A stretch of DNA of 64,000 nt from Eledone cirrhosa (Eukaryota). Shown one piece after another: positions 12,014 through 34,914 of the stretch. Every line of letters starts with the position of its first letter. The stretch's first letter is position 1. The stretch covers positions 69,502,001 to 69,566,000 of the forward strand of contig OZ024744.1 in assembly GCA_964016885.1 (NCBI GenBank). Reading direction: 5' to 3'. The notes beneath the pieces are model-generated. The model saw nothing but the letters and a program-made list of their open reading frames with translations, had not been told where the DNA came from and made no database searches. The position numbers and the translations under genes are program-made.

Positions 12014-12194
12014 AATAACTGTTTCTACTTTAGGCACAAGGCCAGCAATTACCCAGTGCATTACTGGTACTTTATTTTATCGACCCCGTAAGGATGAAAG
12101 GCAAAGTTAACCCTGGCTGGATTTGAACTCAGACCGCAAAGGAACGTAACACTACGGTGCAAAGCATGGCGTCTAACCCTCTACCGATACTGCC
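12014..12194 (-). mobile_element. tRNA-derived SINE, head truncated at the (AAT)n tract
   Basis: Reverse complement of the SINE family at 6360. Confidence 0.85.

Positions 12195-12254
<60 letters not shown>
12195..12254. repeat. (AAT)n microsatellite, tail or target of Tx1 copy A
   Basis: Direct reading. Similar tracts lie at 18285-18304, 22735-22781, 28806-28886 and 34683-34707. Confidence 0.98.
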
Positions 12255-12256
<2 letters not shown>

Positions 12257-12517
12257 TTTCTTTATTAACCACAAGGGTTTACATAAAGTAGACATTAAGG
12301 ACAGTGCAGGACAATGCAGGACGGTACAAATGGGCATTTCTGCGTGTAAAAAAAACAAAAACAGAGGATGTAACAAAAATAACAATGAAAATAACAATGA
12401 AAAATTCCCCAATAGGGGGGAGACTTCGGAGGGACATTTGTGGAGAAAGCCCAGTAAAAAGCCACAATGACCCTGACCACCAAGGCAAGTGCCCTCTCCC
12501 AGTTTTCCACCTTTAGT

Positions 12518-15500
12518 TTACAGATATATACTCAGAGTCGGCCCATTCACTCGGGCCATTCTTGCTTCTCTCACCCATCTTTCAACAAAATGCTGGGAAG
12601 AGAGCACTTCCTTCTCTACTCTGATTTTCCTTTTCAAATGAAATTTGAAAAAGTCAATCAGAGCATCACCGAAGAGGTAAGTGCTCGTCTTCAGCCCTTT
12701 CAAACGTGTCCACCATACTATCTCTTTCGCCATGGCCACCAGACAGATAAAAACTGCCTGCCCATCCCGGCTAAAGGAGGAGGGCGGGGCAATCCTCACG
12801 ATGGACTCAGATGATAGCTGGATCCGTCCTAAACGTGACAGCAGGTGTTCGACATAAACCCACAAGTCAGCAATTTTCGGACACTGGACGAGTGCGTGCA
12901 GGACGGTTTCGTCGCCCTGCGCGCATCTCGGACATGCCCGGCTGACGACACCTCCATGCCTGTAGAGTTTATCCCGAACTGGCAAGGCTCCTCGGTAGCA
13001 CTGCCAGGCCAGAGATTTCTGGAAGTTGTCCATAGGCCCTGGCCCGAAAGTTCTTCCGAAGAGATTGGCTAGTTGATTTTCGTCGACGCCTAGAGTTTCC
13101 CCAAGTACGTCGTCGCTCTTCCCCTCCACTAATCCTCTATAGAACGCCGAGGTGGAGTTTCCACCGATCACATTGCCCGATTGGTCGAGGGCTGTGAGCG
13201 CCTGAAGACATTCCAGTCTCCAGGCGCTCCCTCTCGGTCTTCGCTTGACCCAGGACTGCAGCTCCGTCAAGGAAACGAGCTGGGGAAAAACGCGTCTAGC
13301 AAACGGCGACCACACCTGATCACCGTCGAGGAAGAGGTGGAGATGTCGTAGCCTGAGCGCGTGCCTGCGCATCATCAGCCACGGCATGCCCAGCCCTCCA
13401 CGTAGCGGGTGTTGACAACAGATGGACCGCCTGACCATCGGAGCACGTCCCTTCCACAAAAAGCGAAAGAGCAAACGCTCCAGCGCAGTCAGGCGAGGCT
13501 TAGGACAAGGTACGACGGTTAGGCGGTAGCAGATGACAGACGCGATGTACGCGTTAGCCACCTCCGCTCGACCTTTCAGGGATAGCTTCCTCTCCGCCCA
13601 TTTCTGGGTGAGAGAAGCCACCCTGCTCGTCACCTCGTCCCAGTTTTTGTCCGTCTGGAGGTCCGGACCGAACCAGACCCCTAGCAATTTAACCGGTCCG
13701 TCCGTCCAGCGCCCGACGACGCTGTTGGACGGCATGGACCTGCCTCTCCAGGTGCCGAGCTGCAGGCCCACTGACTTTTCCTGGTTGATCATTGCTCCTG
13801 TCACCGCTTCGTATTCTCTTAGTGTAGTGCCGATCGCCTCGATGTGTTTGGCGTTCGACACCACTACGGTGACATCGTCCGCATATGCTGACACGGATCT
13901 TCCGCATCCTAGTTCGCGCGGGACTCCCCTCAACGTCTCCAGTTTGTGCAGTAATGGCTCGAGAGTCAATACGTACAAGAGGGACGAGAGGGGACATCCT
14001 TGGCGGACCGAGCGCATGATGTTGAACGGTTCCGACAGGTGACCGTTCACTCTCACCACAGAGCAGATGTCGCTGTGCATGGCAGCGATCCAGCCTCTGA
14101 AGACGGGCCCAAAGCCAGCCGCCCTCAGGACTGCCGCTAGGTAACGATGGTCGACCCTATCGAAAGCTTTCGACTGATCTAAATTGATCAAGGACCCACC
14201 CGTGCCAGGTTCCCTAGCTACCCTCTCTACGATGTATCGCATGAGGTGGAGGTTGTCGTGGATGGATCTGTCGGGAATGGCGCATGTCTGCGCCTCTCCC
14301 ACCAGACCACCAACGACAAGCGCCAACCTCTTTGCTAGCACCTTGGCCAAAATCTTAAACTCTGTGTTTAGCAGAGTTATGGGCCGGAAATTGTCTATGT
14401 TATCCCCCTTGTTCGGATCCTTTCTCAGCAGTGCCACCGCTCCTCGGCTCACAGAACTGGGAATTCTCCCGTTCTGTTGCCAGTTGCAGTAGACGTCCGC
14501 CAAGAGGCCTCCGAACAAGTCTGGCATCTGTACGTAAAGTTCATAGGGCAGACCATCCAAACCAGGCGATTTACCCCTTGTGCAGCCAGTCATTGCCTCC
14601 CGTACTTCAGCGGCTGTTATCGGCTTTTCGCAACACTTCGCCTCAGTGGCCGAGAGCCGCGGCAGTCCGTCGAGGTAGACACTAAAGTCCATCCCTCTAC
14701 CCGGCCCCCCGCTGCCCCCGAACAGCTGAGCGAAGTGTCGCTGAAAAGCTTCACACATTTGCCCGGGATCGAGTAGCATGCGCCCGTCGTGGTCCACCAA
14801 AGACCGGATCGTGGCTTTGTTACCACGACGCGCCTCCGCCACTCGGGCCCATTGAACGGCTTTCGTCCCCTCGTGTCTGAGAGCACGCACCCTAGCTCTG
14901 ACAACGCAGCCTTCGTGCTTTGCATTGAAGAATTGGTCAAGGGCCAATTTCGCCGCAAGCACGTCGGTCGCAATGCCTTTGCTAAGCGCCTCGTCTAATT
15001 TTCTAACTAGTTCTCCCTCTGCTCTATTTTTCTCTATTGCTAAAGCCTTACTAAACCTAATCGATTCTATTCTAATCGCTCTTTTCAGAGCAAACCACCA
15101 CTTGTTGTTGACGATGGCTCCCGTCAACGCCCGCTTAACTAGTTCGCTAATCCGGTCTCTGTAGGCCTTGCGCGCTGGTAAGGACGCGTTTAGCTTCCAG
15201 TAGCCGGGTCCTCGTCTATGAAGCCTATCTAAGTCAAGCACACAGGTCACGAATTTGTGGTCCGTGTAGCTGACTATCTTGAATTGTGGACAGCCTATGC
15301 TAGACCTATCTATTTCCCTACAAAATACTCTATCTAGATATGATCTGGATGACCCTATGCGGTTTGTCCAAGTCCATATTGGCACATTCGGGAAATCCAA
15401 TCGGTACCTGTCAGACAGTTCAAAACGCCTGAGCAGGTTGGTGAGGCTCTTGCACCCTCCACCCCTATCCGCTAATCACACACAGTCCCAGGGTGCATCT

Positions 15501-15937
15501 AAAATCCCGTTCCAGTCGCCCACTAACACTAAAGAGCGGGACGTTCCAAGAAAGGTCTCCAGACGCCGGAAGAAAAAAGGCCGCCCTGCTCCTGTCGGGG
15601 CATAGACGGCCACTAGCCTGAAAGCTTGCCCGTCTCCGCTGGTCACGTCCAGCACCACCAGCTTACCCTCTGGGTCCAGGAAGATGGCCCGTATGGCGAG
15701 ATCCAAACCTCTCCGAAAAAGCACAGCAACTCCTCCACCCGATCCAGGACGGCTGGGAGATGCGTACACATCGTAGCCGCCGAAGATCGGTGCGAAGGCC
15801 CGTGCTTCGGAGATTCTGGTCTCGCTGATGGCCACTACATCTATGTTTAGTGACCTGAGGTCGTTGAGCAGGTGACCCTGCTTCCATGACGACCCCAAGC
15901 CACGCGCATTTATGCTGCCTATTCTGAGTGAGGTCAT
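12518..15937 (-). pseudogene. Tx1 ORF2 (APE-RT-CCHC) with a single in-frame TGA at 15476-15478
   Basis: ORFs 15476-15937 and 12518-15400 are in the same frame. Together they span 3420 nt, the same as the intact copy B ORF2. Confidence 0.93.
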
Positions 15938-15972
15938 GTTTAAAATAGAGTGGAAAAGATGGGAAAGACCAC

Positions 15973-18070
15973 TTACCGTACTTTTGGTAGAGGAGGGATG
16001 GTTTTTACATCCCTTTTCACTTGATCGTCTGGTGAAGGGACCGTTGAATCGTCCCTTCGGCTGGTCGTCGGCTCTTCTAAGAGAATGTCTGAGTATACTC
16101 TTCGATTGATGGTTCCTCCTAGGTCCCTGAAATCACCAACTGCGTTGGGGAATTTCGTTTTAATATTTGTGTATTGTTTCTGTGCTATTTTTAGCAGTCT
16201 TATGTTAGTTGGCGTTTTGATTGGTGCTGGTATTATGTAGTCCTGTTGTGAAATGTCTGTGTGTTCAATTATGTAAGTCATTAGTTTCTTGTTGTGTGTA
16301 TTTATTGCCGTGCATTTGTTTTTCTGGGGGTGGGGTGTGGTTCTACTATTTTCTTGTCGTTGTTGCTGGGTGTGTGTGTTTTGTTGTTGTGTTTGCGATG
16401 TTGGTGCTTGTGGTGGTGGTGTTGAAGGTGTTGTTGGCGGTGGGGTTGTCGCCGGTGCTGATGGTGGTGCTGGTGTGGGTGGTGATGGTGTTGGTGGTGT
16501 TGCTGCAGTGGGTCTCTTTGCAGTAGACTTTACCCTTTTCTCATTTCTTTCCTCCCTTTTCAAAGGCGACGATGCGCTGCTTCTGCGTTTGTGCCTTCTT
16601 GCGACCTTTTGCCATCCCTCTCCCACCTCACACTCCATGTCTGATTATGTGAGGTCGGGGAGGGGTACCAGCTCCACTCTTTCACTTGTTGTTGTTGGTG
16701 ATGTTTGCACTGGAGTCTCTGTTGCAGCTGCATTTGGTATTGCTGTTGTTGTTGTTAATATTTCCACTGCTGCTGCTGTTTTTGATTTCCGTGGAGTGGG
16801 TATGGGTGCCACGGACCTATCGTTCCTGGTTGCCGCTTGTCCTGTTGCTGGTAGCCGTGGAGCCGGATTCGGAAGGAGGGGGGTTTTCTCCTTTCTCAGG
16901 GTCTTCTCGTTGCAGAAGGCCCTGAGGTGAGTCTTCGATCCACAGCGAAAGCATTTCGGGCGTTTGCCCTCAACACTTATGGGCAGTTGAGTGCCGTTAT
17001 CGAAGTCTATCACATCCGGGATAGCTTCGATGCACTCCTGGTTGGTTTGGATTAGCATCTCAATGGAGGAGCCGACCCAATCTTCTCTTACTTTTTTCTG
17101 TACTTGCAGTACAATTGTTTTGTCCTCGATTCCGACGAGGACAGACGCGGCCAGCCAAGAAGGGGTCATTCCGGGGGGGACGTGTGTCAGTTTGACCCTC
17201 ACAATTTTTTGCCCGCAGTAGGAGGGCACCAACACCATTTCCTCGCTCCTTAGGGTCACTACTGATTGGGCCTTTGCCTCCTGGGGTGTGGCAAAAAGTA
17301 CGTCTACGGTGGCATATTTTTTGCCTCGGGTGATGTGCGTTTTCCGCTGCCACACAGACCCCAAGGCTTTTTGTATTTGGGCCTCTGTGGCTCTTTCCAC
17401 CCTACGGGATTTTGTACTTACTGTACGGTACGTGACCGTACAGTGCTCTTGGGTTTCGAAAAAATGTTTCCGCTGCCTTGCAGATTGCTCGGTGTCCGTT
17501 CTTTGTCACCATCTTCTTCGCTTCCTCTAATTCCTCATTTGTTATGAGGATTGTTTCCAGGTTTTTCGCAATACCTGCAAATGAGATTGGTTTTTCTCTG
17601 CTGTTGTTGTTGTCGTCAGAGCTGCTGGTACTTTTGTTGTTGCTGCAGGTACTACGACTACTGCCTCCGCCGCTGTTGCTGTGGTTGTTGTTGGTGTTGC
17701 TGCTGCTAATGCTGTTGTTGTTTATGCTGCTGGTGATGCTGTTGCGGCTGCTACTGTTGTTTTCATTGTCACTGTTGCAGTTGTTATTACGGCTGCTACT
17801 GCTATTATTCCTGACGTCAGACGAATGAACTGGGTTTTCGTATTTCCTGCACACCTGTTTCGTCGCTGTCGTCGTCGTCGTGGAGAAACCTTGCACGCTT
17901 TGCACGAGACTTTTCTTTTCTTTCGTCACTTGCGAAAGAGAAGGGAGGGAGAGAGACACATTTAAAGAAGGGAGGGAGAGAGACAATCTTCTCTCTGCTG
18001 TAGTGATGATTGAGAAAGAAGAAGACGGAATGAGTGGGAGTGACGTATGAAATTTCTTTTTCGTAGCCAT
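15973..18070 (-). pseudogene. Tx1 ORF1 of copy A (frameshift at ~17460, stop at 16645)
   Basis: Three ORF pieces concatenate to the copy B ORF1, including the CFRCGSKTHLRAFC zinc knuckle. Confidence 0.92.
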
Positions 18071-18304
18071 GTTGTTTTTTGTTTAAAATGAATATTGGGT
18101 ACAAAACCCCAATAACTGGTTATTTAACCCCGAAGGGCCAAATAACGGACAGAAAGACCCCTCTCACGAGGAGGAGGGTGTCTTTATCAACAATTTGGTT
18201 CAAGTTTTAAACAATTTACAATTGTTTTAACGGTTAAAAATTACTATACCTTACAGAGCCGAGCCTCCGTCAACCATGGCATTCAATAATAATAATAATA
18301 ATAA

Positions 18305-19114
18305 GAGCAGCCTTAAGGGAAAATCCCTTCATAGTACCTTCTTTGAGAAAACTGAATTTAGAGATCCACAGACATGGAACTGGTTGAGAAGAGGAGACCT
18401 CAAAAAGGCTACAGAAGGAATGCTAATGGCTGCGCAGGAGCAGGCCCTCAAAACGAAGTGGTTGAAGCACCATATCTACAAGGAGGAGGCTAGCCCACTG
18501 TGCAGGATCTGTGGAGAGAGAGAGGAGACTGTGGCTCACATTGTGTCCGAGTGTAAACACCTAGCCCAGACCCACTATAAGGGCTGGAGACACGATGTGA
18601 TGGGCAGGGTGATCCACTGGCACCTGTGCAAAGTAAACAATTTACCACATTCTGAGAAATGGTATGAGCATAGGCCAGAGGCGGTGATGGAGAACAATCA
18701 GGTGAAGGTGCTGTGGGATTTTAGGATACAGACGGACAAAAAACTGGAACACAATAGACCTGACCTGGTGGTTGTGGACAAAGAAAAAAGATCGTGCCTG
18801 ATTGTGGATGTGGCCTGCCCGTTCGACACGAGAGTGCAAGAGAAGGAGAGGGAGAAAATTAACCGATACCAGGACCTAAAGTGGGAGGTGAAAAGGATTT
18901 GGAACTGCCATGAAGTCAAAGTGATCCCGATTGTCATAGGCGCACTGGGGACTATCTCCAAAAGTTTCCAGGGATGGTTAAAGAAAATCACGCTTTTTGG
19001 AACGCTTCAAAAGGCATGCTTGCTTGGAACAGCAAGAACCCTCCGATACGTCCTGAATATCTGAGGCTGCAGGTAGTGGCTTGATATTCAATCCAACGGA
19101 CTTTCCAGTTAACC
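18305..19114 (+). mobile_element. 5'-truncated R4/Dong-like element (CCHC finger plus restriction-like endonuclease, open frame to 19064)
   Basis: CRICGEREETVAHIVSEC, RHD, RPDLVVVDK, IVDVACPFD and KINRYQDL. Homologous to 21895-22705. Confidence 0.92.
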
Positions 19115-22100
19115 AAGTGTGTTTGTTTGTTTATGTGTGTTCGTATACAGCGTGGTGATAATGCCACACAAGGGCCAAGTGGAATGGCGGATCCACAGAT
19201 GGCTATGTAACTATACATTCGCCAATCCTCGATAAGAGTGTTTAAATATCGAACATAAACAGTTCGAATAACGGTGAAATGGAGACTAGAACGTCATGTG
19301 ACAGACTCTCACCCAACAGGTGCCCCCTGGCTCAGCAGCAGGAACCTGACTGTCAACCAAATACTGCTGATGTTGGAGGAAGAAGAAGAAGGAAAGGGGC
19401 CAGAACCAACTGGACGAAAGAATTGAATAGAACTGTTATGCAATGCTACCTGAAAAGTAACCCCAAGGAGAGGGGCTACAGGAGACGGATGTATAACATC
19501 TAGAACGAGATTGGTTTATTTAAATTAGATGAACAAAAATTGGCCGGGCAGGCTCGGGTAATAAGAACTAATGGGTGGATAAGCGAGCTGGAACTGGAGG
19601 AACTGAGCAGAGAGAATGGCTTGGAGATGGCGGGTGTAGTATGCCAGACAAGCGAGCCAGTGGGAAATGAAGGTGAAGAGGTCCTGAGAACGGAGGAACC
19701 ACCCGAAGCAGACAATGATCTGAATACTGAGATAAATAATACCTGGAACAGAGATACGGCCACTGAGGAGATGAATGCTGACGGGCTAGGACAAGATTCG
19801 GTTGACATCCTAAATTTAGTGGTAGATGAATTGAACAATGATAGTGGGAGACCTATGAACCTAAGATTTGTAGACAGGAAAAAGTTAAAACAAACAACAA
19901 CTAAGGTAAACAAAGTCATCCCATACCTTGAGACGAGGAGCCTTCACCAGTGCAACAATATCCTCAAAGCAACAGCAAATACGGTGAGGAAACTACTTGG
20001 TATAAAAGCGAGAGGAAACAACAAACAAGAAAGATAAGAACCTTGGTGAGAGAAACGACTGAATGGTCAAATCAGGGAAATGAGAAATGACATTGGAAAG
20101 CTTGAGTCCCTAGTGAATGGGACACTAAAAAACATAGACACTAAAAATAGACTGGAATTAAAGTACAAAACTAGGAGTAAAAAGCTAAATATTATCATAG
20201 AGGAACTGAAGTAACGCATTGTAGCAAAGAGTGCAACAATTATGCGATACGAGAGCAGAGTCAGTCAGTATAGACAGAACCGCATGTTTGACAAAAACCA
20301 GAAGATGTTGTTTGGACAGCTTAAAGGGAAAAAAAGAGGCAACGACTTGATCACTGAGGCGGAACAAACTAAGACATTCTGGAGAGGAATATGGGAGCAG
20401 GATGTTGAACATAATGATCAGGCAGTGTGGATTGAGACAGTACAAAAGGAGATTAGTGAACAGGCACACCAACAAACTGATTTGAGTATCACAGTTGAAA
20501 CTCTTAAGAGGCAGGCCAAAAAACTAACCAACTGGAAATCACCAGGCCCAGATTGTGTACAAGGTATTGGATTAAAAATATAACATCCCTCCACCCGAAA
20601 CTGACAACCATGTTCAATGACTGCTTGATGTAAGGTGAGGTACCAGAGTGGTTGACAAAAGGTACCACAGTTCTGGTAATGAAAGACCGAATCAAGGGTA
20701 ATGATGTTACCAACTGTAGACCTATCACATGTCTGTCTGTAATGTGGAAACAGTTAACAAGCATTGTGTCTGAGGAAATCTACCATCACCTCCGCATAAA
20801 CAACTTGTTACGGGACGAACAGACAGAATGCCGAAAGAAGTCCCGTGGTACAAAGGACCAGTTACTTATTGATAAGATGGTAATGAGGAATTGCAAGAGG
20901 AGACACACTGGTCTTGCCATGGGATGGATAGACTACAAAAAGGCATTCGACATGGTACCTCATTCTTGGATCACCAAAAGCCTAGAGATCTTCAAGGTGA
21001 GAGATAACATCAGACAGTTGTTGAGCAAAAGTATGAATTCCTGGAAAACAGAGTTAACATCAGCTGGAGAATCCTTGGGAGGCGTGAAGATCAAGGTAGG
21101 TATATTCCAGGGAGATAGTTTGTCCCCTCTGTTGTTTTTCCTTGCCCTGATACCCCTGACCATTATACTGCGAAAGGTAAGAGCAGGAAACAAGTTGGGA
21201 AAAGGAGACCTTACCATCAATCACCTCCTCTTTATGGACGATCTTAAGCTCTTTGGAAAGTGTGAGAAGGAGTTGGATGTGCTTGTTGACACTGTCCGTA
21301 TTTTCAGCAATGATATATGTATGCAATTTGGTATTAGTAAGTGTGGAGTCCTTGTGATAAAGATTGAGCAGAAGCAACGGAATCCAGGTACCAACAGGTG
21401 AGATGATAAAAGAAATTGACACTGAAGAAGGATACAAATATTTAGGTGTTCTGGAGGCTGATGTCATCAAGAACAAAAAAAATTAAGGAATTGATAAGAT
21501 CTGAGTACATAAGGAGAGTAAGGAGCGTATTAAAATCACATCTGAACAGTAGGAATGCCATAAGTGCAGTAAATTCCCGATATGTGTCTATTATTAGGTA
21601 CAGTGCGGGAATTCTGAGATGGAATGTTGCTGAACAAAAAGAAATGGATAGGAAGACTAGGAAGCTATTGACTATCTACAACATGTTCCACAAGAGGAGT
21701 GATGTCGATAGACTCTACTTAAGGAGATCTGAAGGTGGAAGTGGTCTTATCAGCATAGAGGACTGTGTTCAGATGGAGAAAAACAACCTATACAAATACG
21801 TGACTGATAGTAGGGAGCCAATGCTCAGAATTGTACTGAAGGAGAGGACAATAGACCAGGGGATGTCCAAGGAGGAAATAACAAGGAGAAAGTGCAACCT
21901 TCATGAAAAATCCCTTCATAGTACCTTCTTTGAGAAAACTGAATTCAGAGATCCACAGACATGGAACTGGTTGAAAGGAGGAGACCTTAAAAAGGCTACA
22001 GAAGGAATGCTAATGGCTGCGCAAGAGCAGGCCGTCAAAGCGAAGTGGCTGAAACACCATATTTACAAGGACGAGGCTATCCCACTGTGTAGAATCTGTG

Positions 22101-22734
22101 GAGAGAGAGAGAGGAGACTGTGGCTCACATTGTATCCGAGTGTAAACACCTAGCACAGACTCACTATAAGGGCTGGAGACATGATGTGATGGGCAGGGTG
22201 ATCCACTGCACCTATGCAAAGTAAACAATTTACCACATTCTGAGAAGTGGTATGAGCATAAGCCAGAGTCGGTGATAGAAAACGATCAGGTGAAGGTGTT
22301 GTGGGATTTTAGGATACAGACGGACAAGAAACTGGAACACAATAGTCCTGGCCTGGTGGTTTTGGACAAGGAAAGAAGATCGTGCCTGATTATGGATGTG
22401 GCCTGCCCATTCGACACGAGAGTGCAAGAGAAGGAGAGGGAGAAAATTAACCGATACCAGGACTTAAAGTGGGAGGTAAAAAGGATTTGGAACTGCCATG
22501 AAATAAAAGTGGTCCCGATTGTCATAGGCGCACTACGTACTATCTCAAACAGTTTTCAAGGATGGTTAAAGAAAATTGGCCCCGCATTTTGAAACACTTC
22601 AAAAGGCATGCTTGCTGGGAACAGCAACAACCCTCCGATACGTCCTGAATATCTGAGGCTGCAGGTAGTGGCTTGATATTCATTTCAACAAACTTTCCAG
22701 TTAACTAACATCAATGACTGAGACTTAAAGAACC
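19115..22734 (+). mobile_element. Full-length but disrupted R4/Dong-like non-LTR retrotransposon (RT plus C-terminal RLE)
   Basis: WKSPGPD, RPITCL, GTKDQLLID, WIDYKKAFD, GIFQGDSLSPLLF, NHLLFMDDLKLF, YKYLG, CRIC and MDVACPFD. It ends in (TAA)n, the repeat Dong elements are known to target. Confidence 0.92.
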
Positions 22735-22783
<49 letters not shown>

Positions 22784-26000: not shown

Positions 26001-26463
26001 ATCCCACACAGTCCCAGTGTGCATCTAAGATCCCGTTCCAGTCGCCCACTAACACTAAAGAGCGGGACGTTCCAAGAAAGGTCTCCAGACGCCGGAAGAA
26101 ATCAGGCCGCCCTGCTCCTGTCGGGGCATAGACGGCCACTAGCCTGAAAGCTTGCCCGTCTCCGCTGGTCACGTCCAGCACCACCAGCTTACCCTCTGGG
26201 TCCAGGAAGATGGCCCGTATGGCGAGATCCAAACCTCTCCGAAAAAGCACAGCAACTCCTCCACCCGATCCAGGACGGCTGGGAGATGCGTACACATCGT
26301 AGCCGCCGAAGATCGGTGCGAAGGCCCGTGCTTCGGAGATTCTGGTCTCGCTGATGGCCACTACATCTATGTTTAGTGACCTGAGGTCGTTGAGCAGGTG
26401 ACCCTGCTTCCATGACGACCCCAAGCCACGCGCATTTATGCTGCCTATTCTGAGTGAGGTCAT
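23044..26463 (-). CDS. Tx1 ORF2: AP endonuclease, reverse transcriptase and CCHC zinc finger (1139 aa)
   Basis: SINARGL, ISET, VYAP, GDWN, YLDRVF, TDHK, GPGYWKLN, KSPGLDG, RPITLLN, LDQSKAFDRV, VRQGCPLS, AYADD, GGLG and CPRC..ETVLHALVQC. Confidence 0.97.
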   Translation of the reverse strand: MTSLRIGSINARGLGSSWKQGHLLNDLRSLNIDVVAISETRISEARAFAPIFGGYDVYASPSRPGSGGGVAVLFRRGLDLAIRAIFLDPEGKLVVLDVTSGDGQAFRLVAVYAPTGAGRPDFFRRLETFLGTSRSLVLVGDWNGILDAHWDCVGLADRGGGCKSLTNLLRRFELSDRYRLDFPNVPMWTWTNRIGSSRSYLDRVFCREIDRSSIGCPQFKIVSYTDHKFVTCVLDLDRLHRRGPGYWKLNASLPARKAYRDRISELVKRALTGAIVNNKWWFALKRAIRIESIRFSKALAIEKNRAEGELVRKLDEALSKGIATDVLAAKLALDQFFNAKHEGCVVRARVRALRHEGTKAVQWARVAEARRGNKATIRSLVDHDGRMLLDPGQMCEAFQRHFAQLFGGSGGPGRGMDFSVYLDGLPRLSATEAKCCEKPITAAEVREAMTGCTRGKSPGLDGLPYELYVQMPDLFGGLLADVYCNWQQNGRIPSSVSRGAVALLRKDPNKGDNIENFRPITLLNTEFKILAKVLAKRLALVVGGLVGEAQTCAIPDRSIHDNLHLMRYIVERVAREPGTGGSLINLDQSKAFDRVDHRYLAAVLRAAGFGPVFRGWIAAMHSDICSVVRVNGHLSEPFNIMRSVRQGCPLSSLLYVLTLEPLLHKLETLRGVPRELGCGRSVSAYADDVTVVVSNAKHIEAIGTTLREYEAVTGAMINQEKSVGLQLGTWRGRSMPSNSVVGRWTDGPVKLLGVWFGPDLQTDKNWDEVTSRVASLTQKWAERKLSLKGRAEVANAYIASVICYRLTVVPCPKPRLTALERLLFRFLWKGRAPMVRRSICCQHPLRGGLGMPWLMMRRHALRLRHLHLFLDGDQVWSPFARRVFPQLVSLTELQSWVKRRPRGSAWRLECLQALTALDQLGNVIGGNSTSAFYRGLVEGKSDDILGETLGVDENQLANLFGRTFGPGPMDNFQKSLAWQCYRGALPVRDKLYRHGGAVSRACPRCAQGDETVLHALVQCPKIADLWVYVEHLLSRLGRIQLSSESIVRIAPPSSFSREGQAVFICLVAMAKEIVWWTRLKGLKTSTYLFGDALIDFFKFHLKRKIRVEKEVLSSQHFVERWVREARMARVNGPTLSIYL

Positions 26464-26498
26464 GTTTAAAATAGAGTGGAAAAGATGGGAAAGACCAC

Positions 26499-28592
26499 TT
26501 ACCGTACTTTTGGTAGAGGAGGGATGGTTTTTACATCCCTTTTCACTTGATCGTCTGGTGAAGGGACCGTTGAATCGTCCCTTCGGCTGGTCGTCGGCTC
26601 TTCTAAGAGAATGTCTGAATATACTCTTCGATTAATGGTTCCTCCTAGGTCCCTGAAATCACCAACTGCGTTGGGGAATTTCGTTTTAATGTTTGTGTAT
26701 TGTTTCTGTGCTATTTTTAGCAGTCTTATGTTAGTTGGCGTTTTGATTGGTGCTGGTATTATGTAGTCCTGTTGTGAAATGTCTGTGTGTTCAATTATGT
26801 AAGTCATTAGTTTCTTGTTGTGTGTGTTTATTGCCGTGCATTTGTTTTTCTGGGGGTGGGGTGTGGTTCTGCTATTTTCTTGTCGTTGTTGCTGGGTGTG
26901 TGTGTTTTGTTGTTGTGTTTGCGATGTTGGTGCTTGTGGTGGTGGTGTTGAAGGTGTTGTTGGCGGTGGGGTTGTCGCCGGTGGTGATGGTGGTGCTGGT
27001 GTGGGTGGTGATGGTGTTGGTGGTGTTGCTGCTGTGGGTCTCTTTGCAGTAGACTTTACCCTTTTCTCATTTCTTTCCTCCCTTTTCAAAGGCGACGATG
27101 CGCTGCTTCTGCGTTTGTGCCTTCTTACGACCTTTTGCCATCCCTCTCCTACCTCACATTCCATGTCTGATTCTGTGAGGTCGGGGAGGGGTACCAGCTC
27201 CACTCTTTCACTTGTTGTTGTTGGTGATGTTTGCACTGGAGTCTCTGTTGCAGCTGCATTTGGTATTGCTGTTGTTGTTGTTAATATTTCCACTGCTGCT
27301 GCTGTTTTTGATTTCCGTGGAGTGGGTATGGGTGACACGGACCTATCGTTCCTGGTTGCCGCTTGTCCTGTTGCTGGTAGCCGTGGAGCCGTATTCGGAA
27401 GGAGGAGGGTTTTCTCCTTTCTCAGGGTCTTCTCGTTGCAGAAGGCCCTGAGGTGAGTCTTCGATCCACAGCGAAAGCATTTCGGGCGTTTGCCCTCAAC
27501 ACTTATGGGCAGTTGAATGCCGTTATCGAAGTCTATCACATCCGGGATAGCTTCGATGCACTCCTGGTTGGTTTGGATTAGCATCTCAATGGAGGAGCCG
27601 ACCCAATCTTCTCTTACTTTTTTCTGTACTTGCAGTACAGTTGTTTTGTCCTCGATTCCGACGAGGACAGACGCGGCCAGCCAAGAAGGGGTCATTCCGG
27701 GTGGGACGTGGGTCAGTTTGACCCTCACAATTTTTTGCCCGCAGTAGGAGGGCACCAACACCATTTCCTCGCTCCTTAGGGTCACTACTGATTGGGCCTT
27801 TGCCTCCTGGGGTGTGGCAAAAAGTACGTCTATGGTGGCATATTTTTTGCCTCGGGCGATGTGCGTTTTCCGCTGCCACACAGACCCCAAGGCTTTTTGT
27901 ATTTGGGCCTCTGTGGCTCTTTCCACCCTACGGGATTTTGTACTTACTGTACGGTACGTGACCGTACAGTGCTCTTGGGTCTCGAAAAACTTTTCCGCTG
28001 CCTTGCAGATTGCTCGGTGTCCGTTCTTTGTCACCATCTTCTTCGCTTCCTCTAATTCCTCATTTGTTATGAGGATTGTTTCCAAGTTTTTCGCAATACC
28101 TGCAAATGAGATTGGTTTTTCTCTGCTGTTGTTGTTGTCGTCAGAGCTGCTGGTACTTTTGTTGCTGCAGGTACTACGACTACTGCCTCCGCCGCTGTTG
28201 CTGTGGTTGTTGTTGGTGTTGCTGCTGCTAATGCTGTTGTTGTTTATGCTGCTGGTGATGCTGTTGCGGCTGCTACTGTTGTTTTCATTGTCACTGTTGC
28301 TGTTGTTTTTACGGCTGCTACTGCTATTATTCCTGACGTCAGACGAATGAACTGGGTTTTCGTATTTCCCGCACACCTGTTTCGTCGCTGTCGTCGTCGT
28401 CGTGGAGAAACCTTGCACGCTTTGCACGAGACTTTTCTTTTCTTTCGTCACTTGCGAAAGAGAAGGGAGGGAGAGAGACACATTTAAAGAAGGGAGGGAG
28501 AGAGACAATCTTCTCTCTGCTGTAGTGATGATTGAGGAAGAAGAAGACGGAATGAGTGGGAGTGACGTATGAAATTTCTTTTTGGTAGCCAT
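26499..28592 (-). CDS. Tx1 ORF1 gag-like nucleic-acid-binding protein
   Basis: Open frame, with the likely ATG at 28592 (MATKKK). It has a CX2CX4HX4C knuckle and Asn/Ser-rich and Pro/Thr-rich regions, and lies immediately upstream of ORF2. Confidence 0.92.
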   Translation of the reverse strand: MATKKKFHTSLPLIPSSSSSIITTAERRLSLSLPSLNVSLSLPSLSQVTKEKKSLVQSVQGFSTTTTTATKQVCGKYENPVHSSDVRNNSSSSRKNNSNSDNENNSSSRNSITSSINNNSISSSNTNNNHSNSGGGSSRSTCSNKSTSSSDDNNNSREKPISFAGIAKNLETILITNEELEEAKKMVTKNGHRAICKAAEKFFETQEHCTVTYRTVSTKSRRVERATEAQIQKALGSVWQRKTHIARGKKYATIDVLFATPQEAKAQSVVTLRSEEMVLVPSYCGQKIVRVKLTHVPPGMTPSWLAASVLVGIEDKTTVLQVQKKVREDWVGSSIEMLIQTNQECIEAIPDVIDFDNGIQLPISVEGKRPKCFRCGSKTHLRAFCNEKTLRKEKTLLLPNTAPRLPATGQAATRNDRSVSPIPTPRKSKTAAAVEILTTTTAIPNAAATETPVQTSPTTTSERVELVPLPDLTESDMECEVGEGWQKVVRRHKRRSSASSPLKREERNEKRVKSTAKRPTAATPPTPSPPTPAPPSPPATTPPPTTPSTPPPQAPTSQTQQQNTHTQQQRQENSRTTPHPQKNKCTAINTHNKKLMTYIIEHTDISQQDYIIPAPIKTPTNIRLLKIAQKQYTNIKTKFPNAVGDFRDLGGTINRRVYSDILLEEPTTSRRDDSTVPSPDDQVKRDVKTIPPLPKVR

Positions 28593-28805
28593 GTTTTTTT
28601 GTTTAAAATGAAATTTTGGGTACAAAACCCCAATAACTGGTTATTTAACCCCGAAGGGCCAAATAACGGACAGAAAGACCACTCTCACGAGGAGGAGGGT
28701 GTCTTTATCAACAATTTGGTTCAAGTTTTAAACAATTTACAATTGTTTTAACGGTTAAAAATTACTATACCTTACAGAGCCGAGCCTCCGTCAACCATGG
28801 CATTC

Positions 28806-28853
<48 letters not shown>

Positions 28854-28886
28854 GAAAACAATAATAATAATGATAATAATAATAAT

Positions 28887-31800
28887 GTTTTCTTTATTAA
28901 CCACAAGGGTTTACATAAAGTAGACATTAAGGACAGTACAGGACAATACAGGACGGTACAAATGGGCATTTCTGCGTGTAAAAAAAAACAGAGGATGTAA
29001 TAAAATAACAAAGAAAAATTCCCCAATAGGGGGGAGACTGCCGAGGGACATTTGTGGAGAAAGCTCATTAAAAGACCACAGTGACCCTAACCACCAGGGC
29101 AAGTGCCCTCTCCCAGTTTTCCACCTTTAATTTACAGACACATACTCAGAGTAGGCCCATTCACTCGGGCCATACTTGCTTCTCTCACCCATCTATCAAC
29201 AAATTGCTGGGAAGAGAGCACTTCTCTCTCTACCCTGATTTTCCTTTTCAAATGAAATTTGAAAAAGTTAATCAGGGCATCACCGAAGAGGTAAGTGCTC
29301 GTCTTCAGCCCTTTCAAACGTGTCCACCATACTATCTCTTTCGTCATGGCCACCAGACAGATAAAAACTGCCTGCCCTTCCCGGCTAAAGGAAGAGGGCG
29401 GGGCAATCCTCACGATGGACTCAGCTGATAGCTGGATCCGACCTACACGTGACAGCAGGTGTTCGACATAAACCCACAAGTCAGCAATGCTCGGACACTG
29501 GACGAGTGCGTGCAGGACGGTTTCGTCGCCCTGCGCGCATCTCGGACATACCCGGCTGACGGCACCTCCATGCCTGTAGAGTTTATCCCGAACTGACAAA
29601 GCTCCTCGGTAGCACTGCCAGGCCAGGGATTTCTGGAAGTTGTCCATGTCCATAGGCCCCGGCCCGAAAGTCCTTCCGAAGAGATTGGCTAGTTGATTTT
29701 CGTCGACGCCTAGAGTTTCACCAAGTACGTCGTCGCTCTTCCCCTCCACTAATCCTCTATAGAACGCCAAGGTGGAGTTTTCACCGATCACATTGCCCGA
29801 TTGGTCGAGGGCTGTGAGCGCCTGAAGACATTCCAGTCTCCAAGCGGTCCCTCTCGGTCTTCGCTTGGCCCAGGACTGCAGCTCCGTCAAGGAGACGAGC
29901 TGGGAAAGACGCGTCTAGCAAACGGGGCCACACCTGATCACCGTCGAGGAAGAGGTAGAGATGTCGTAGCCTGATCGCGTGTCTGCGCATCATCAGCCAC
30001 GTCATACCCAGCCCCTCCACGTAGCGGGTGTTGACAGCAGATGGACCGCCTGACCATCGGAGCGCGTCGCTTCCACAAAAAGCGAAAGAGCAAACGCTCC
30101 AGCGCAGTCAGGCTGGGCTTAGGACAAGGTACCACGGCCAGGCGGTAGTAGATGATGGACCCGATGTACGCGTTAGCCACCTCCGCTCGACCTTTCAGGG
30201 ATAGCTTCCTCTCGGCCCATTTCTGGGTGAGAGAAGCCACCCTGCTCATCACCTCGTCCCAGTTTTTGTCCGTCTGGAGATCCGGACCGAACCAGACCCC
30301 TAGCAATTTAACCGGTCCGTCCGTCCAGCGCCTGATGACGCTGTTGGACGGCATGGACCTGCCTCTCCAGGTGCCGAGCTGCAGGCCCACTGACTTTTCC
30401 TGGTTGATCATTGCTCCTGTCACCGCTTCGTATTTTCTTAGTGTAGTGCCGATCGCCTCGATGTGTTTGGCGTTCGACACCACTACGGTGACATCGTCCG
30501 CATATGCTGACACGGATCTTCCGCATCCTAGTTCGCGCGGGACGCCCCTCAACGTCTCCAGTTTGTGCAGAAATGGCTTGAGAGTCAATACGTACAAGAT
30601 GGACGAGAGGGGACATCCTTGGCGGCCCGAGCGCATGATGTTGAACGGTTCCGCAAGGTGACCTTTCACTCTCATCACAGAGCAGATGTCGCTGTGCATG
30701 GCAGCAATCCAGCCTCTGAAAACGAACCCAAAGCCAGCCGCCCTCATGACTGCCGCTAAGTAACGATGGTCGACCCTATCGAAAGCTTTCGACTGATCTA
30801 AATTGATCAAGGACCCACCCGTGCCAGGTTCCCTAGCTACCCTCTCTACGATGTATCGCATGAGGTGGAGGTTGTCGTGGATGGATCTGTCGGGAATGGC
30901 GCATGTTTGCGCCTCTCCCACCAGACCACCAACGACAAGCGCCAACCTCTTTGCTAGCACCTTGGCCAAAATCTTGAACTCTGTGTTTAGCAGAGTTATG
31001 GGCCTAATATTATCAAATTATCCCCCTTATTCGGATCCTTTCTCAGCAGCGCCACCGCTCCTTGTCTTACAGAGCTGGGAATTCTCCCGTTCTGTTGTCA
31101 GTTGCAGTAGACGTCCGCCAAGAGGCCTCCGAACAAGTCTGGCATTTGTACGTAAAGTTTATAGGGCAGACCATCCAAACCAGGCGATTTACCCCTTGTG
31201 CAGCCAGTCATTGCCTCCCGTACTTCAGCGGCTGTTATCGGCTTTTCGCAACACTCCGCCTCAGTGGCCGAGAGCCGCGGCAGTCCGTCGAGGTAGACAC
31301 TAAAGTCCATCCCTGGATCCGGCCCGCCTCTGCCCCCGAACAACTGAGCGAAGTGTCGCTGAAAAGCTTCATACATTTGCCCGGGATCGATTTGCATGCG
31401 CCCGTCGTGGTCCACCAAAGACCGGATCGTGGCTTTGTTGCCACGACGCGTCTCCGCCACTCGGGCCCATTGAACGGCTTTCGTCCCCTCGTGTCTGAGA
31501 GCACGCACCCTAGCTCTGACAACGCAGCCTTGGTGCTTTGCATTGAAGAGTAGGTCAAGGGCCAATTTCGCCGCAAGTACGTCGGTCACGATGCCTTTGC
31601 AAAGCGCCTCGTCTAATTTTCTAACTAGTTCTCCCTCTGCTCTATTTTCTCTATTGCTAAAGCCTTATACTAAACCTAATGGAATCTATTCTAATTGCTC
31701 TTTTCAGAGCAAACCACCACTTGTTGTTGCCGATGGCCACGGTCAACGCCCGCTTAACTAGTTCGCTAATCCGGTCTCTGTAGGCCTTGCGTGCTAGTAA

Positions 31801-34682
31801 GGACGCGTTTAGCTTCCAGTAGCCGGGTCCTCGTCTATGAAGCCTATCTAAGTCAAGCACACAGATCACGAATTTCTGGTCCGTGTAGCTGACTATCTTG
31901 AATTGTGGACAGCCTATGCTAGACCTATCTATTTCCCTACAAAATACTCTATCTAGATATGATCTGGATGACCCTATGCGATTTGTCCAAGTCCACATTG
32001 GCGCATTCGGGAAATCCAATCGGTACCTGTCAGACAGTTCAAAACGCCTGAGCAGGTTGGTGAGGCTCTTGCACCCTCCACCCCTATCCGCTAATCACAC
32101 ACAGTCCCAGGGTGCATCTAAAATCCCGTTCCAGTCGCCCACTAACACTAAAGAGCGGGACGTTCCAAGAAAGGTCTCCAGACGCCGGAAGAAATCAGGC
32201 CGCCCTGCTCCTGTCGGGGCATAGACGGCCACTAGCCTGAAAGCTTGCCCGCCTCCGCTGGTCACGTTCAGCACCACTAACTTATTTTCTTGGTCCAGGA
32301 AGATGGCCCGTATGGCGAGATCCAAACCTCTCCGAAAAAGCACAGCAACTCCTTCCCCCGATCCCGGACGGCTGGGAGATGCTATAACATCGTAGCCGCC
32401 GAAGATCGGTGCGAAGGCCCGGGCTTCGGAGATTCTGGTCTCGCTGATGGCCACTACATCTATTCTTAGTGACCTGAGGTCGTTGAGCAGGTGGCCCTGC
32501 TTCCATGACGACCCCAAGCCACGCGCATTTATGCTGCCTATTCTGAGTGAGGTCATGTTGAAAAGGAGTGGAAAAGATGGGAAAGACCACTTACCTTACT
32601 TCTCGTAGAGGAAGGACGGTTTTTCCATCCTTTTCACTGTTTGTGGCGTCTTCAGGAAGGATATCCTTATAAATCCTCCTGGAGAGTGTTTGTCGGAAGT
32701 CTCCGATGTCTTTGGGGAATTTTTGTTTCATTGTCGTGTACGTTTTCTGTGTGATGCGAGAGATTTGTATGTGTGGAGGTGGTGTGAACTTTTGGGTTGT
32801 TGTGTAGTCTCTTTGTGTGATGCTGGTGTTGTGTTGCATGTAGTGTAATAATTGGTTGTTGTTCAAATTTAATGCTGTGTAGTGTGTATCGTTTTGGTTG
32901 TTTTGCTTTGTTTGCATTTGTTGTGAGTTTGATTCTGTTACGCTTTTTGGTGACTTTTATGGTGTTGGTGATGGTGGTGTTGGGGTTAATGATGGTGATG
33001 GTGTTGGTGATGATGGTGTGGATGGTGGCATATCTGTCCTAACTTTTTTGTTTGATAATTTATTTGTTTCCCTCTGTATTTTGTTTTTGGAGGGGGGGGG
33101 GGGAGATAGAATTTTTTTCTTTTCTGGTTTCTTTTTTTCTTTTTTCCTGATACCGTTTCCCACTCCTCGTCGTCACAATCTGTCTCCAGTTGCGATAAGC
33201 CGGGGAGTGGAAAATCCCCCACAGGCGTTGGTTTTGTTTGGGGCGTGGTGGATGGTGTAGGCGCTGGTGCTAGTTCTGGCGCGTTGAGTGGTGGTGGTGG
33301 TGTTGGTTTTGTTACTGTTGCTGGGGTTGTTGCTGTTACAGTTGCTTCTGTTGTTGCTGCTACAGTTGTTGCTGCCATTTCTGCTGCTGGTGGTGTTGAT
33401 GGTTGAGTCACTGGGGTGGGTAAGAGAGGTGGCCTCAACCTTTCAGCCTGAGGGCAGAAAGCCCTTAGGTGGGTTCCTTCACCACAAACGACACATCTAG
33501 GCCTTTTGCCCTCGACGATTACGGTGAGGTGGCTGCCGTCAGTGAGGTCTATTACCTCTGGGATCTCCTCAATGCTTTTTTGGTCCGCTTGGATCAGGAG
33601 CTCCATTCCAGCTCCGGACCAGTTCTCCTGCTTTTCTTTCGCTATTTCAATTATCTTGGTGTTGGCCTCGATGCCGGCGAGGACGGCAGCCATTAGCCAG
33701 GAAATTTCGATGGCCGGTGGAACGTGGGTCACCCTGATCTTCACAAGTCTCTGGCCACAATAGCTTGGGACGAGTGTGAAGTCGTCACTTCTTAATAGGG
33801 CCATGGAGTGTTCTCTGGCCTCCTGTGGTGTTTCAAAGAACACGTCCACGGTTCCATATTTCTGCCCACGTCTGATGTGGCCCACACATGTCCCAAAGCT
33901 TTTGGGATTTGGGACTCGGATGGCCGTTCCACTCGATAAGACACGGTGCATAGGCGACGTTGCTCCATTTTATTAGGTGTGTGGGGGGGGGGGGGGGGTA
34001 AGGCTGACCCTGTACCCATCTTTGGCTTCTTCTAATTCCTCCTGAGTTACCTGGAATGCTTCGCACTGTTTTGCTACTCTGGCAAAACTCAGGGTGGTTT
34101 TCTTAATTTCATTGTTGCTGTTGTTGTTATCGTTATTTTTGTTATTGTTAATTTTAGTTTCAGTTGTGGTGGTGGTGGCGTCAGTGTTGTTCGGTGTGGA
34201 AGAGTTAATTTTGGTTGAATTCGTTTCGATATCACGAGTTAATTTATTTTTTTCTTTTGTTTCTGTTGTCGCTGTGGTGGTGGTGGTGGTGGCGGCTTTA
34301 ACACCTGCTGTCATTAGTAATGGCGGGAAATGAACGTCTGCCTGAGACAAATTTAAAATATTGCTACTGCTTACAATTCCAGTGTTGGCAAACGTAACAA
34401 TATTTACAATAGTGGTGTCGGTGTGAGGTGTTAGATTGTGAGGAAGGAGTGACTCTGAGACATCCATGATTTTTCAAAGAAAAATTTTTGTTTGATAATT
34501 AAAAAAATTTTAAATTTTGGGCTCAAGGCCCCAATATTTTTGTGTGTCCTTTTCAGAAATCAATGTATGTGCACTTATATACAGTTAACAATAAAAATTT
34601 TCCATAAATGGCAATTTTAAACAACTGAAAATAACAAACCTTTGCGGAGCTCACGATGATACGATTTACTACGTAGGTCGCT
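28887..34682 (-). mobile_element. Full-length disrupted L1/Tx1 retrotransposon, copy C (different 5' UTR and ORF1)
   Basis: ORF2 pieces (29132-32556) closely match copy B. ORF1 pieces (32591-34467, CVVCGEGTHLRAFC) are only protein-level homologues. Flanked by (AAT)n. Confidence 0.95.
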
Positions 34683-34731
34683 AATAATAATAATAATAAT
34701 AATAATACACTATTAATAATTATTAATTAAT

Positions 34732-34914
34732 TGTTTCTACTTTTAGGCACAAGGCCAGCAAATACCCAGTACATTACTGGTACTTTATTTTCCCCGTAAG
34801 GATGAAAGGCAAAAGTTAACCTCGGCGGGATGTGAACTCAGACCGTAAAGGGACGTAACTATGCTGGAAAACATGGCGTCCGACTCTCTACCGATACTGC
34901 CAATCCACCGCCCA
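34732..34914 (-). mobile_element. tRNA-derived SINE
   Basis: Reverse complement of the SINE family. Its ATT-rich tail abuts the 5' end of Tx1 copy C. Confidence 0.87.

What the first reader, a model, noticed from the sequence alone, without database searches (positions are those of the whole stretch)
12014..34914. 23-kb element train joined at (AAT)n: SINE, Tx1-C, Tx1-B, [Dong x2], Tx1-A, SINE
Seen: on the minus strand the order is SINE, C, B, A, SINE, all the same polarity, and each is separated by an (ATT)n tract that is the upstream element's tail. Two plus-strand R4/Dong-like elements occupy one of those tracts. Known: some Tx1-clade APE elements are microsatellite-specific, and Dong targets TAA repeats. 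Inference: this Tx1 family targets (ATT)n and each insertion regenerates its own target. Two unrelated endonuclease types (APE and RLE) then use opposite strands of the same repeat.
Basis: partly seen in the sequence, partly recalled or inferred. Interest (0 to 1): 0.75.

Follow-up and report, generated by a model that had tools for sequence, protein, structure and literature searches.

The report
Retrotransposon train inside an ATT tract
A 23-kb stack of jumping genes sits inside a short ATT repeat in the front end of an older jumping gene; one family lands in such repeats at nearly all of its intact starts across this animal genome, an unrelated family lands in them facing the other way, and the first likely also copies a very abundant short element that ends in the same predicted small RNA hairpin.

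Summary
The train is real, and its mechanism holds genome-wide. Of 1,628 exact 5' ends of the A/B family, 1,571 follow (ATT)4 in register; background is 12 in 263,300 positions. A and B are separate insertions: they share no private allele, and 34 of 54 other copies are nearer to A than B is. Dong-like neighbours face the other way at 41 of 41 counted ends. It is native to the 5' leader of an RTE LINE that the train splits (8.6–12.0 kb and 34.7–35.3 kb); 18 of 29 paralogues are empty, 11 are occupied. (2) The SINE has no tail of its own: what follows it is a 9–20-bp target duplication starting ATTA. (3) The Dong pair probably came before A and B. Addition: SINE and LINE share a covarying 3' hairpin, so the SINE likely uses this LINE. 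Tx1 membership rests on architecture, not on a tree. The scan reported this system earlier at other loci of this genome. A new target and combination of known parts.

The parts
8600..12019 (-). Body of the host RTE-clade LINE (broken frames: APE-like N-terminus, RT), starting with the right-hand remnant of the leader's ATT tract
   Evidence: RVT_1 at 9669-10562. 91-92% colinear with empty paralogues L289 and L305. The 3' limit is approximate. The RTE label rests on recalled motifs.
12020..12194 (-). SINE1, lacking about 8 nt of the head and starting in the ATT tract
   Evidence: 86% to SINE2 and 88% to the copy at 40281-40485.
12195..12254 (.). (AAT)20 junction tract
12255..18284 (-). Tx1-like LINE copy A, full length, young; ORF1 and ORF2 each interrupted
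   Evidence: Exo_endo_phos, RVT_1 and zf-RVT pieces; 5 indels and 50 substitutions against B.
18285..18302 (.). (AAT)6 between the 5' end of A and the truncated 5' end of Dong1
18303..19116 (+). Dong/R4-like copy 1: 814-bp 3' fragment (CCHC knuckle and PD-(D/E)xK endonuclease), last 28 nt missing
   Evidence: 91.6% to Dong2. Weak match to R2 endonuclease domains, E 0.002.
19117..22736 (+). Dong/R4-like copy 2, near full length, several stops and frameshifts, joined to copy 1 without an AAT tract
   Evidence: RVT_1 E 1e-21; best genomic relatives 94-96% over the 3' 335 nt; junction.
22737..22781 (.). (AAT)15 shared tail-to-tail by Dong2 and B
22782..28805 (-). Tx1-like LINE copy B, both frames open: ORF1 26499-28592 (CX2CX4HX4C knuckle), ORF2 23044-26463 (APE, RT, zf-RVT; 1,139 aa); ends in a predicted CUUGU-loop hairpin and AATAAA
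28806..28886 (.). (AAT)15 plus imperfect AAT tract between B and C
28887..34682 (-). Tx1-like LINE copy C, older subfamily with a different 5' UTR and ORF1, many breaks
   Evidence: 94.6% to A/B over the 3' 3.8 kb only; the same 5' type follows ATT tracts at many other loci.
34683..34731 (-). Left-hand part of the RTE leader's native ATT tract ((AAT)8 on +) and 25 nt of leader, including one copy of the SINE2 target duplication (34716-34731)
   Evidence: Same sequence precedes the tract in empty paralogues.
34732..34913 (-). SINE2, full length, flanked by a 16-bp target duplication that starts ATTA
34914..35339 (-). 5' leader of the host RTE element (second copy of the duplication at 34914-34929)
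   Evidence: 3,108 first-look candidates in the genome; 90-91% colinear with L289 and L305.

Best explanation
The 23-kb train sits inside an (ATT)n tract native to the 5' leader of one RTE LINE, and it likely grew by separate target-primed insertions of a young L1/Tx1-like family and its likely partner SINE on one strand and of Dong/R4-like elements on the other. Shown: host, empty paralogues, flanks, polarity, separate origin of A and B, and target duplications starting ATTA. Inferred: (1) The LINE's APE domain nicks the AAT strand just 3' of TAAT. (2) The second cut falls about 10-20 nt downstream, sometimes up to about 50, so each insertion leaves ATT repeats on both sides and so renews the target. 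(3) Polarity follows from which strand each family primes on; no interaction between the families is needed. (4) The SINE is copied by the same ORF2 protein through a shared 3' CUUGU hairpin. (5) Likely order: RTE, then SINE2, SINE1, C and the Dong pair (mutual order unknown), then A and B on either side of the Dong pair.
For: Genome counts: 1,571 of 1,628 B-type 5' ends follow (ATT)4 in register. There are 6,573 exact 3' ends. In a position-ordered sample of 54 3' ends (a few seen twice), 52 start with ATT, 50 with ATTA and 44 have (ATT)4 within 40 nt; background for (ATT)4 is 12 of 263,300 positions. Empty sites: 17 of 29 leader paralogues run straight from the tract (4-14 units) into the RTE frame and one more has an intact tract; 11 carry Tx1-like, Dong-like or SINE insertions there. 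Duplication: an imperfect spacer recurs at 51, 36 and 30 bp between copies of the G000:C1:441.09-441.14 Mb array, whose copies differ by a median of 34 substitutions against 35 to dispersed copies. Truncated copy L179 has a 16-17-bp imperfect duplication. A versus B: 50 substitutions, no allele shared only by them, 18 and 14 private alleles, different sisters in the tree. Polarity: Dong neighbours are opposite at 33 of 33 3' ends and 8 of 8 intact 5' ends; Tx1 neighbours are in the same sense at 72 of 72; SINE neighbours at 19 of 21. SINE: 116,492 of 132,507 3' ends are followed by ATTA. 19 of 26 scored copies (30 examined) have 9-20-bp duplications, 18 of them starting ATTA. The SINE's last 22 nt match B best at B's last 22 nt (15-16 of 22). 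The 4-bp hairpin covaries across 12 LINE and 10 SINE ends: 17 cells changed on both sides, 0 of 500 shuffles as high, best of the seven registers.
Against: No enzyme or retrotransposition assay. In pure tracts the duplication length cannot be read, so part of the 5' (ATT)n could be carried by the element's RNA. 8 of 21 listed 5'-truncated copies lack (ATT)3 at the 5' junction: two adjoin (TTC)n, one an ACT tract, and one (L088) follows a Dong tail in the same sense. Some tandem neighbours are close relatives (5 substitutions within the 441-Mb array; L062/L063 rank 1 of 46; three array copies form a clade at 0.98), so local duplication or re-insertion from one source contributes to some trains. 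At most 12,555 of about 132,507 SINE ends (9.5%, an upper bound) are followed by (ATT)4, far fewer than for the LINE, so the endonuclease alone does not explain the LINE's strictness if both use it. The hairpin is weak on its own: z from -1.6 to +1.2, and formed in the minimum-energy fold of 9 of 11 ends. The 22 rows for covariation were picked by me with a pattern that demanded part of the loop, and they fall into few lineages. The terminal 22-nt match is equalled by chance once inside C and once inside the RTE. The copies used for the tree were chosen for likeness to B.
Confidence: 0.8

Rival explanations
1. The LINE carries (ATT)n at both ends as part of its own RNA, read through from source copies that sit in tracts. 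It nicks only a short ATTA motif, like the SINE, and pairing of the RNA's repeats with the target, not the endonuclease, puts it into long tracts and fixes the 5' register.
For: The 5' junction is in one register (ATT then G) for two unrelated 5' UTR types. The SINE, which likely uses the same enzyme, mostly sits at short ATTA sites. Truncated LINE copies are less strict at the 5' side. Some full-length copies have a long 5' tract but only 3-4 matching bases at the 3' side (L164, L189). RNA-target annealing is proposed for SART1 (PMC7265360, passages).
Against: Long tracts pre-exist at empty paralogues and are hit there. Imperfect native tracts are duplicated. 13 of 21 listed truncated copies, which cannot carry a 5' repeat, still adjoin ATT tracts (one of the 13 is an internally deleted copy). 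This reading refines the best one rather than replacing it.
Confidence: 0.3
2. A and B, and trains in general, come from tandem or segmental duplication, unequal crossing-over at the tracts, or mis-assembly.
For: A and B are 99.05% identical. A few tandem neighbours elsewhere are each other's nearest relatives. No read set spanning the locus was obtained.
Against: No allele is shared only by A and B, and 34 of 54 other copies are nearer to A than B is. Their flanks differ. The train mixes three families and two orientations inside a host whose halves are colinear with empty paralogues.
Confidence: 0.05
3. Insertion is only AT-rich-biased, as for L1; copies outside ATT tracts are removed by selection, and tails expand into microsatellites afterwards.
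For: The SINE's loose targets. Tail-born microsatellites are a known process (PMC3812793, passages).
Against: Tail expansion cannot put (ATT)4 in register before 96.5% of 5' ends. The copies are very young (median 0.6% apart; 35 of 47 with both frames open), leaving little time for such sorting.
Confidence: 0.07
4. The SINE is mobilised by another LINE (the RTE, the Dong-like family or one not seen here) and its likeness to the Tx1 end is chance or ancient.
For: The shared stretch is only about 22 nt and AT-rich in part. Other LINE families of this genome were not surveyed.
Against: Terminal positions of Dong and of my approximate RTE end match 2-5 of 22. Dong primes on the other strand. The SINE shares polarity, the ATTA start and the covarying hairpin with the Tx1-like ends.
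Confidence: 0.2

Closest known systems
Microsatellite-specific Tx1-clade LINEs: Kibi (TC)n, Koshi (TTC)n, crocodilian (TTCC)n/(TTTC)n families (PMC4494074 and PMC3812793, passages; Kojima and Fujiwara 2004 not seen)
   Same: APE-type two-ORF element of the L1 group found inside a simple repeat; meets that paper's criterion of more than 20% of flanks by a wide margin.
   Different: The target is (ATT)n, not named for Tx1 in the passages read or in searches (Repbase is not searchable here). Thousands of copies and several subfamilies with different 5' ends. No tree with named Tx1 families could be built.
Dong (R4 clade): Bombyx Dong, DongAg, DongBg in TAA repeats (PMC3812793, passage); Dong-R4 and L1-Tx1 listed as recently active in Octopus vulgaris (PMC13282606, passages)
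   Same: Single RT plus C-terminal CCHC and restriction-like endonuclease; 28 of 30 3' ends followed by two or more AAT units, and 12 of 19 printed 5' junctions adjoin AAT (read by eye).
   Different: Nothing new in the target. New only in sharing tracts with an APE family on the other strand. A second, 41%-identical R4-like family does the same.
TRAS1 and SART1 in Bombyx telomeric (TTAGG)n (PMC7265360, passages; lead from an earlier scan note)
   Same: Two families insert into one repeat in opposite directions.
   Different: Both are APE-type (R1 clade, recalled) and telomeric. Here an APE and an RLE family share a dispersed microsatellite.
Keno (APE, Tx1) and Utopia (RLE) in U2 snRNA genes (PMC4640811, passages)
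   Same: Unrelated endonuclease types converge on one target.
   Different: They share the same site and 3' flank in a low-copy gene. Here they use opposite strands of an abundant repeat.
SINE-LINE pairs with a shared 3' tail (PMC3747384, passages and Table 1); SINEU with Tx1-Mar (PMC4494074); MetaSINEs (PMC4824008, passages)
   Same: Shared 3' end with a covarying stem-loop, as for maize ZmSINE2/LINE1-1_ZM; shared target preference, as for SINEU.
   Different: Table 1 of PMC3747384 lists no Tx1 partner. The SINEU link in the passages read rests on target and age. PMC4824008 states that MetaSINE partners were unknown in 2016; that this SINE is a MetaSINE is my recollection and was not confirmed.

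Membership tests
L1 group / Tx1 clade | Two ORFs; ORF2 = APE endonuclease + RT + C-terminal cysteine motif | tested here: met
   Pfam Exo_endo_phos, RVT_1, zf-RVT; best solved relative is human L1 ORF2p, E 8e-53, against 2e-21 for R2; catalytic motifs present.
L1 group / Tx1 clade | ORF1 with CCHC knuckle rather than the vertebrate L1 coiled-coil type (feature recalled) | tested here: met
   CX2CX4HX4C in B and C; no Pfam family hit ORF1.
L1 group / Tx1 clade | RT phylogeny groups with named Tx1 families (Tx1L, Keno, Kibi, Koshi) | not testable with these tools
   Homologue searches gave no named Tx1 reference. Nearest named hit is an Argonauta hians protein, 69% over 668 aa.
Microsatellite-specific LINE | Target repeat in more than 20% of flanks, at both ends | tested here: met
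   96.5% of 5' ends; 44 of 54 sampled 3' ends.
Microsatellite-specific LINE | Target present at the empty site | tested here: met
   18 of 29 paralogous RTE leaders carry the tract without insertion. These are paralogues, not alleles.
Microsatellite-specific LINE | Endonuclease cuts the repeat sequence-specifically | not testable with these tools
   Needs an in vitro assay.
R4 clade / Dong | One ORF, RT followed by CCHC and PD-(D/E)xK endonuclease, no APE | tested here: met
R4 clade / Dong | Insertion in (TAA)n | tested here: met
   28 of 30 3' flanks (by eye).
R4 clade / Dong | RT phylogeny with Dong/R4 references | not testable with these tools
   1,387 homologues, none of the 120 listed named Dong or R4; label rests on architecture, target and a recalled N-terminal motif.
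SINE partnered with this LINE | Shared 3' terminal sequence or structure | tested here: met
   short and weak in energy.
SINE partnered with this LINE | Shared insertion signature | tested here: met
   ATTA at the 3' junction in 88% of SINE ends and 50 of 54 LINE ends; duplications starting ATTA in both. Use of long tracts differs.
SINE partnered with this LINE | Mobilisation in trans | not testable with these tools
   Needs a cell assay.
MetaSINE superfamily | tRNA head followed by the 66-bp Meta domain | tested here: inconclusive
   Resemblance recalled. No tRNA or Rfam match. Two of three supplement files searched without a hit; file 1 could not be read.

The most novel reading that the evidence does not exclude
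One retrotransposon enzyme gives two target strictnesses, set by the RNA it copies. It nicks any ATTA site for the SINE, which has no repeat tail, but the LINE's own RNA carries AUU repeats that pair with the target and confine it to long tracts. An RTE family that carries an ATT tract in its leader spreads fresh landing sites for three other retroelement families. This would be an RNA-assisted route to microsatellite specificity, with a natural in-genome control.
Probability: 0.3. Interest if true: 0.75.

Novelty: new variant of a known kind. Interest (0 to 1): 0.52.

Why it matters
It gives a young, high-copy, often intact APE-type LINE with a near-absolute link to one microsatellite, and a likely passenger SINE with looser habits. 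Comparing the two can separate what the endonuclease and what the RNA contribute to target choice, which PMC3812793 calls not well understood for microsatellite-targeted elements. It would also name the likely engine of a SINE with over 130,000 exact copies in a probably octopod genome, where SINEs are a main repeat class and partners are unreported in the papers searched. Practically, ATT/AAT microsatellites in such genomes are insertion hot spots and poor markers. Each ingredient has a precedent, so this is a specialist result, not a new class.

Tried and rejected
A DNA search with the LINE's 3' UTR found nothing (the search skips very common words); an exact pattern then gave 6,573 hits. 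Rfam and ARAGORN found no real RNA family in the SINE, only microsatellite-driven mir-297 matches. The protein atlas gave no answer. Metagenome relatives were distant (mostly 21-37% identity); none of 13 examined ends had an ATT tract, which says nothing about close relatives. Sequencing runs: no RNA holder listed. Laying three runs on 11500-13500 gave only collapsed repeat contigs, no spanning piece and no allele information. Rejected: duplication of A and B; the SINE tail as founding target; Dong inserted last between B and A (Dong2 is 4-6% from its nearest genomic relatives, A and B about 0.6%). Folding energy alone does not support the hairpin. The Dong paper (PMC309301) was not held. No structure or complex prediction was run.
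Full report
Setting. The window is G000:C28:69,502,001-69,566,000 of a 3.0-Gb animal assembly. The nearest named protein relative of the LINE is from Argonauta hians (69% over 668 aa), so the host is probably an octopod; I went no further.

Observation. All listed elements are present with the stated polarity. B has both frames open (ORF1 with a CCHC knuckle; ORF2 of 1,139 aa with APE, RT and zf-RVT). A is 99.05% identical to B but interrupted. C shares only the 3' 3.8 kb (94.6%) and has another 5' UTR and ORF1. The plus-strand pair encodes RT, a CCHC knuckle and a restriction-like endonuclease. The five junction tracts hold the only AAT/ATT runs of five or more units in the window.

Is ATT a target? 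All 30 fetched copies of the 40 best 5'-end matches were preceded by ATT repeats, with varied DNA beyond. Exact counts extend this: 1,628 5' ends, 1,571 of them directly after (ATT)4. The five exceptions I looked at still had ATT or an imperfect tract. There are 6,573 exact 3' ends. In a position-ordered sample of 54 (a few seen twice), 52 start with ATT, 50 with ATTA, 39 with (ATT)4 and 44 have (ATT)4 within 40 nt. The background is 12 of 263,300 positions. Truncated copies are looser: 13 of 21 listed have (ATT)3 at the 5' junction, one of these being an internal deletion, and 8 do not. Other subfamilies with different 5' ends sit in the same tracts.

Tail or target duplication? Pure tracts cannot tell; imperfect ones can. 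In an array of about ten copies at G000:C1:441.09-441.14 Mb one imperfect spacer recurs between copies at 51, 36 or 30 bp, always ending at the same base. The copies differ by a median of 34 substitutions, as much as from dispersed copies (35), though a few are close sisters. Truncated copy L179 has a 16-17-bp imperfect duplication, and L084 an 11-bp one in an ACT tract. So insertions copy part of the target, which renews it.

Are A and B a duplication? No. They differ by 50 substitutions; 34 of the 54 other distinct full-length copies are nearer to A than B is. Among 47 young copies (8 older copies and one duplicate row dropped) they share no private allele, hold 18 and 14 private ones and pair with different dispersed copies. 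35 of those 47 have both frames open; the sample is biased to copies like B.

The DNA right of SINE2 is a repeat with 3,108 first-look candidates. In 17 of 29 fetched paralogues it runs through an ATT tract of 4-14 units straight into the same RT-bearing frame that lies left of SINE1; one more has an intact tract before an internally deleted body. Paralogue L289 is colinear with window 34914-35319 and 10777-12018, with about 32 nt where the window has 22.9 kb. The train therefore sits in a tract native to an RTE-like leader. The other 11 paralogues are occupied: Tx1-like copies or fragments come first in six (L279, L280, L281, L282, L286, L290), Dong-like copies in the opposite sense in four (L283, L284, L291, L294) and a SINE in one (L288).

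Dong. 28 of 30 3' ends are followed by AAT repeats and 12 of 19 printed 5' junctions adjoin them; six of the rest are internal rearrangements (by eye). Over all loci in hand, a Dong copy lay within 200 nt of 33 of 127 LINE 3' ends and 8 of 79 intact 5' ends, always in the opposite sense (the loci were pooled from several searches, so frequencies are not genome rates). One truncated LINE copy follows a Dong tail in the same sense (L088). Dong2 is 4-6% from its nearest relatives against about 0.6% for A and B, so the pair likely predates them. Dong1 joins Dong2 without a tract, which suggests a template jump in one event or a later deletion (inference).

The SINE. It is very abundant (96,612 head matches; 132,507 3'-end matches). 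88% of ends are followed by ATTA but at most 9.5% by (ATT)4. In 19 of 26 scored copies out of 30 examined, the bases after the end repeat 9-20 nt of the 5' flank, 18 of them starting ATTA, so the apparent tail is the target duplication. SINE2 itself has a 16-bp duplication. The SINE's last 22 nt align without gaps to the LINE's last 22 nt (15-16 matches, the best position in B). Both contain CUUGU closed by a 3-4-bp stem. Across 12 LINE and 10 SINE ends, one stem position is C-G (once U-G) in all LINE ends and G-C in all SINE ends, and another is A-U or G-C among LINE subfamilies; covariation exceeds 500 of 500 shuffles and all slid registers. Caveats: hand-picked related rows, weak folding energy. 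Shared end, shared ATTA start and shared polarity (19 of 21) make this LINE family the likely mobiliser (about 0.75).

Mechanism. Shown: anatomy, flanks, empty sites, polarity, duplications. Inferred from established target-primed reverse transcription: a first nick on the AAT strand after TAAT, priming on the RNA 3' end, a second cut downstream, and hence ATT on both sides of each new copy. Dong-like elements prime on the other strand. The gap between LINE and SINE strictness is unexplained; pairing of AUU repeats in the LINE RNA with the target is my leading idea.

Known versus new. Tx1 families specific for (TC)n, (TTC)n and (TTCC)n/(TTTC)n are described (PMC4494074, passages; PMC3812793, passages), as is Dong in TAA. 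Opposite-direction use of one repeat is known for TRAS1/SART1 (PMC7265360, passages), and APE/RLE convergence for Keno/Utopia (PMC4640811, passages). Active Dong-R4 and L1-Tx1 are listed for Octopus vulgaris without targets in the passages read (PMC13282606; PMC8967140). Table 1 of PMC3747384 (passages and first part of section 21) has no Tx1 partner; PMC4824008 (passages) leaves MetaSINE partners unknown; PMC4758252 (passages) adds nothing on this pair. Searches listed no ATT-targeting Tx1 and no octopod SINE-Tx1 pair. Repbase, subscription papers and one supplement file of PMC4824008 could not be seen and may hold such a family. Earlier notes of this scan report the same system at other loci of this genome, including the SINE hairpin and an RTE 3' UTR as host; they are not independent support. 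Verdict: real, well supported, a new variant of a known kind; interest 0.52.

Noticed in passing
window 1-468 and L204 (G000:C28:69492001-69502000): A second train starts at the window's left edge: a third Tx1-like subfamily (73-80% to B), an ATT tract, a C-type copy, an ATT tract, then a Dong copy tail-to-tail.
   Followed up: partly
window 19116/19117: The two Dong copies join with no AAT tract; Dong1 lacks its last 28 nt, and Dong2 starts inside the family's 5' UTR. Possible template jump during one insertion.
   Followed up: partly
L283, L075 and about ten other loci: A second R4/Dong-like family (41% protein identity to Dong1) also meets Tx1-like 3' ends tail-to-tail in ATT tracts.
   Followed up: partly
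L091, L093, L189, L044: Tx1-like copies with (TTC)n on one side; either compound tracts or tolerance of a related repeat.
   Followed up: no
G000:C1:1767380-1768481, 1981978-1982452; L158, L159: The 45-nt SINE head forms tandem arrays of 11-25 units.
   Followed up: no
L008/L061/L083/L179: Another dispersed repeat with an imperfect ATT/GTT tract after a (TA)/(GT) run is a recurring host for this LINE.
   Followed up: partly
window 54183-56489 (-): 768-aa open frame with RT-like and C-terminal GIY-YIG-like motifs, Penelope-like by recall; no Pfam hit at 0.01. A similar decayed piece near 8300-8600 appears to be interrupted by the host RTE.
   Followed up: no
window 49257-50285 (+): PIF1-like helicase fragment, probably from a Helitron.
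   Followed up: no
window 773-1795, 1657-2938, 42404-43015, 62694-63482: Long inverted-repeat pairs (149-401 nt arms, 91-98%), MITE-like.
   Followed up: no
window 57955-58155: Perfect (TTC)67 tract.
   Followed up: no
window 51140-51346 (-): Diverged (69%) relative of the RTE leader.
   Followed up: no
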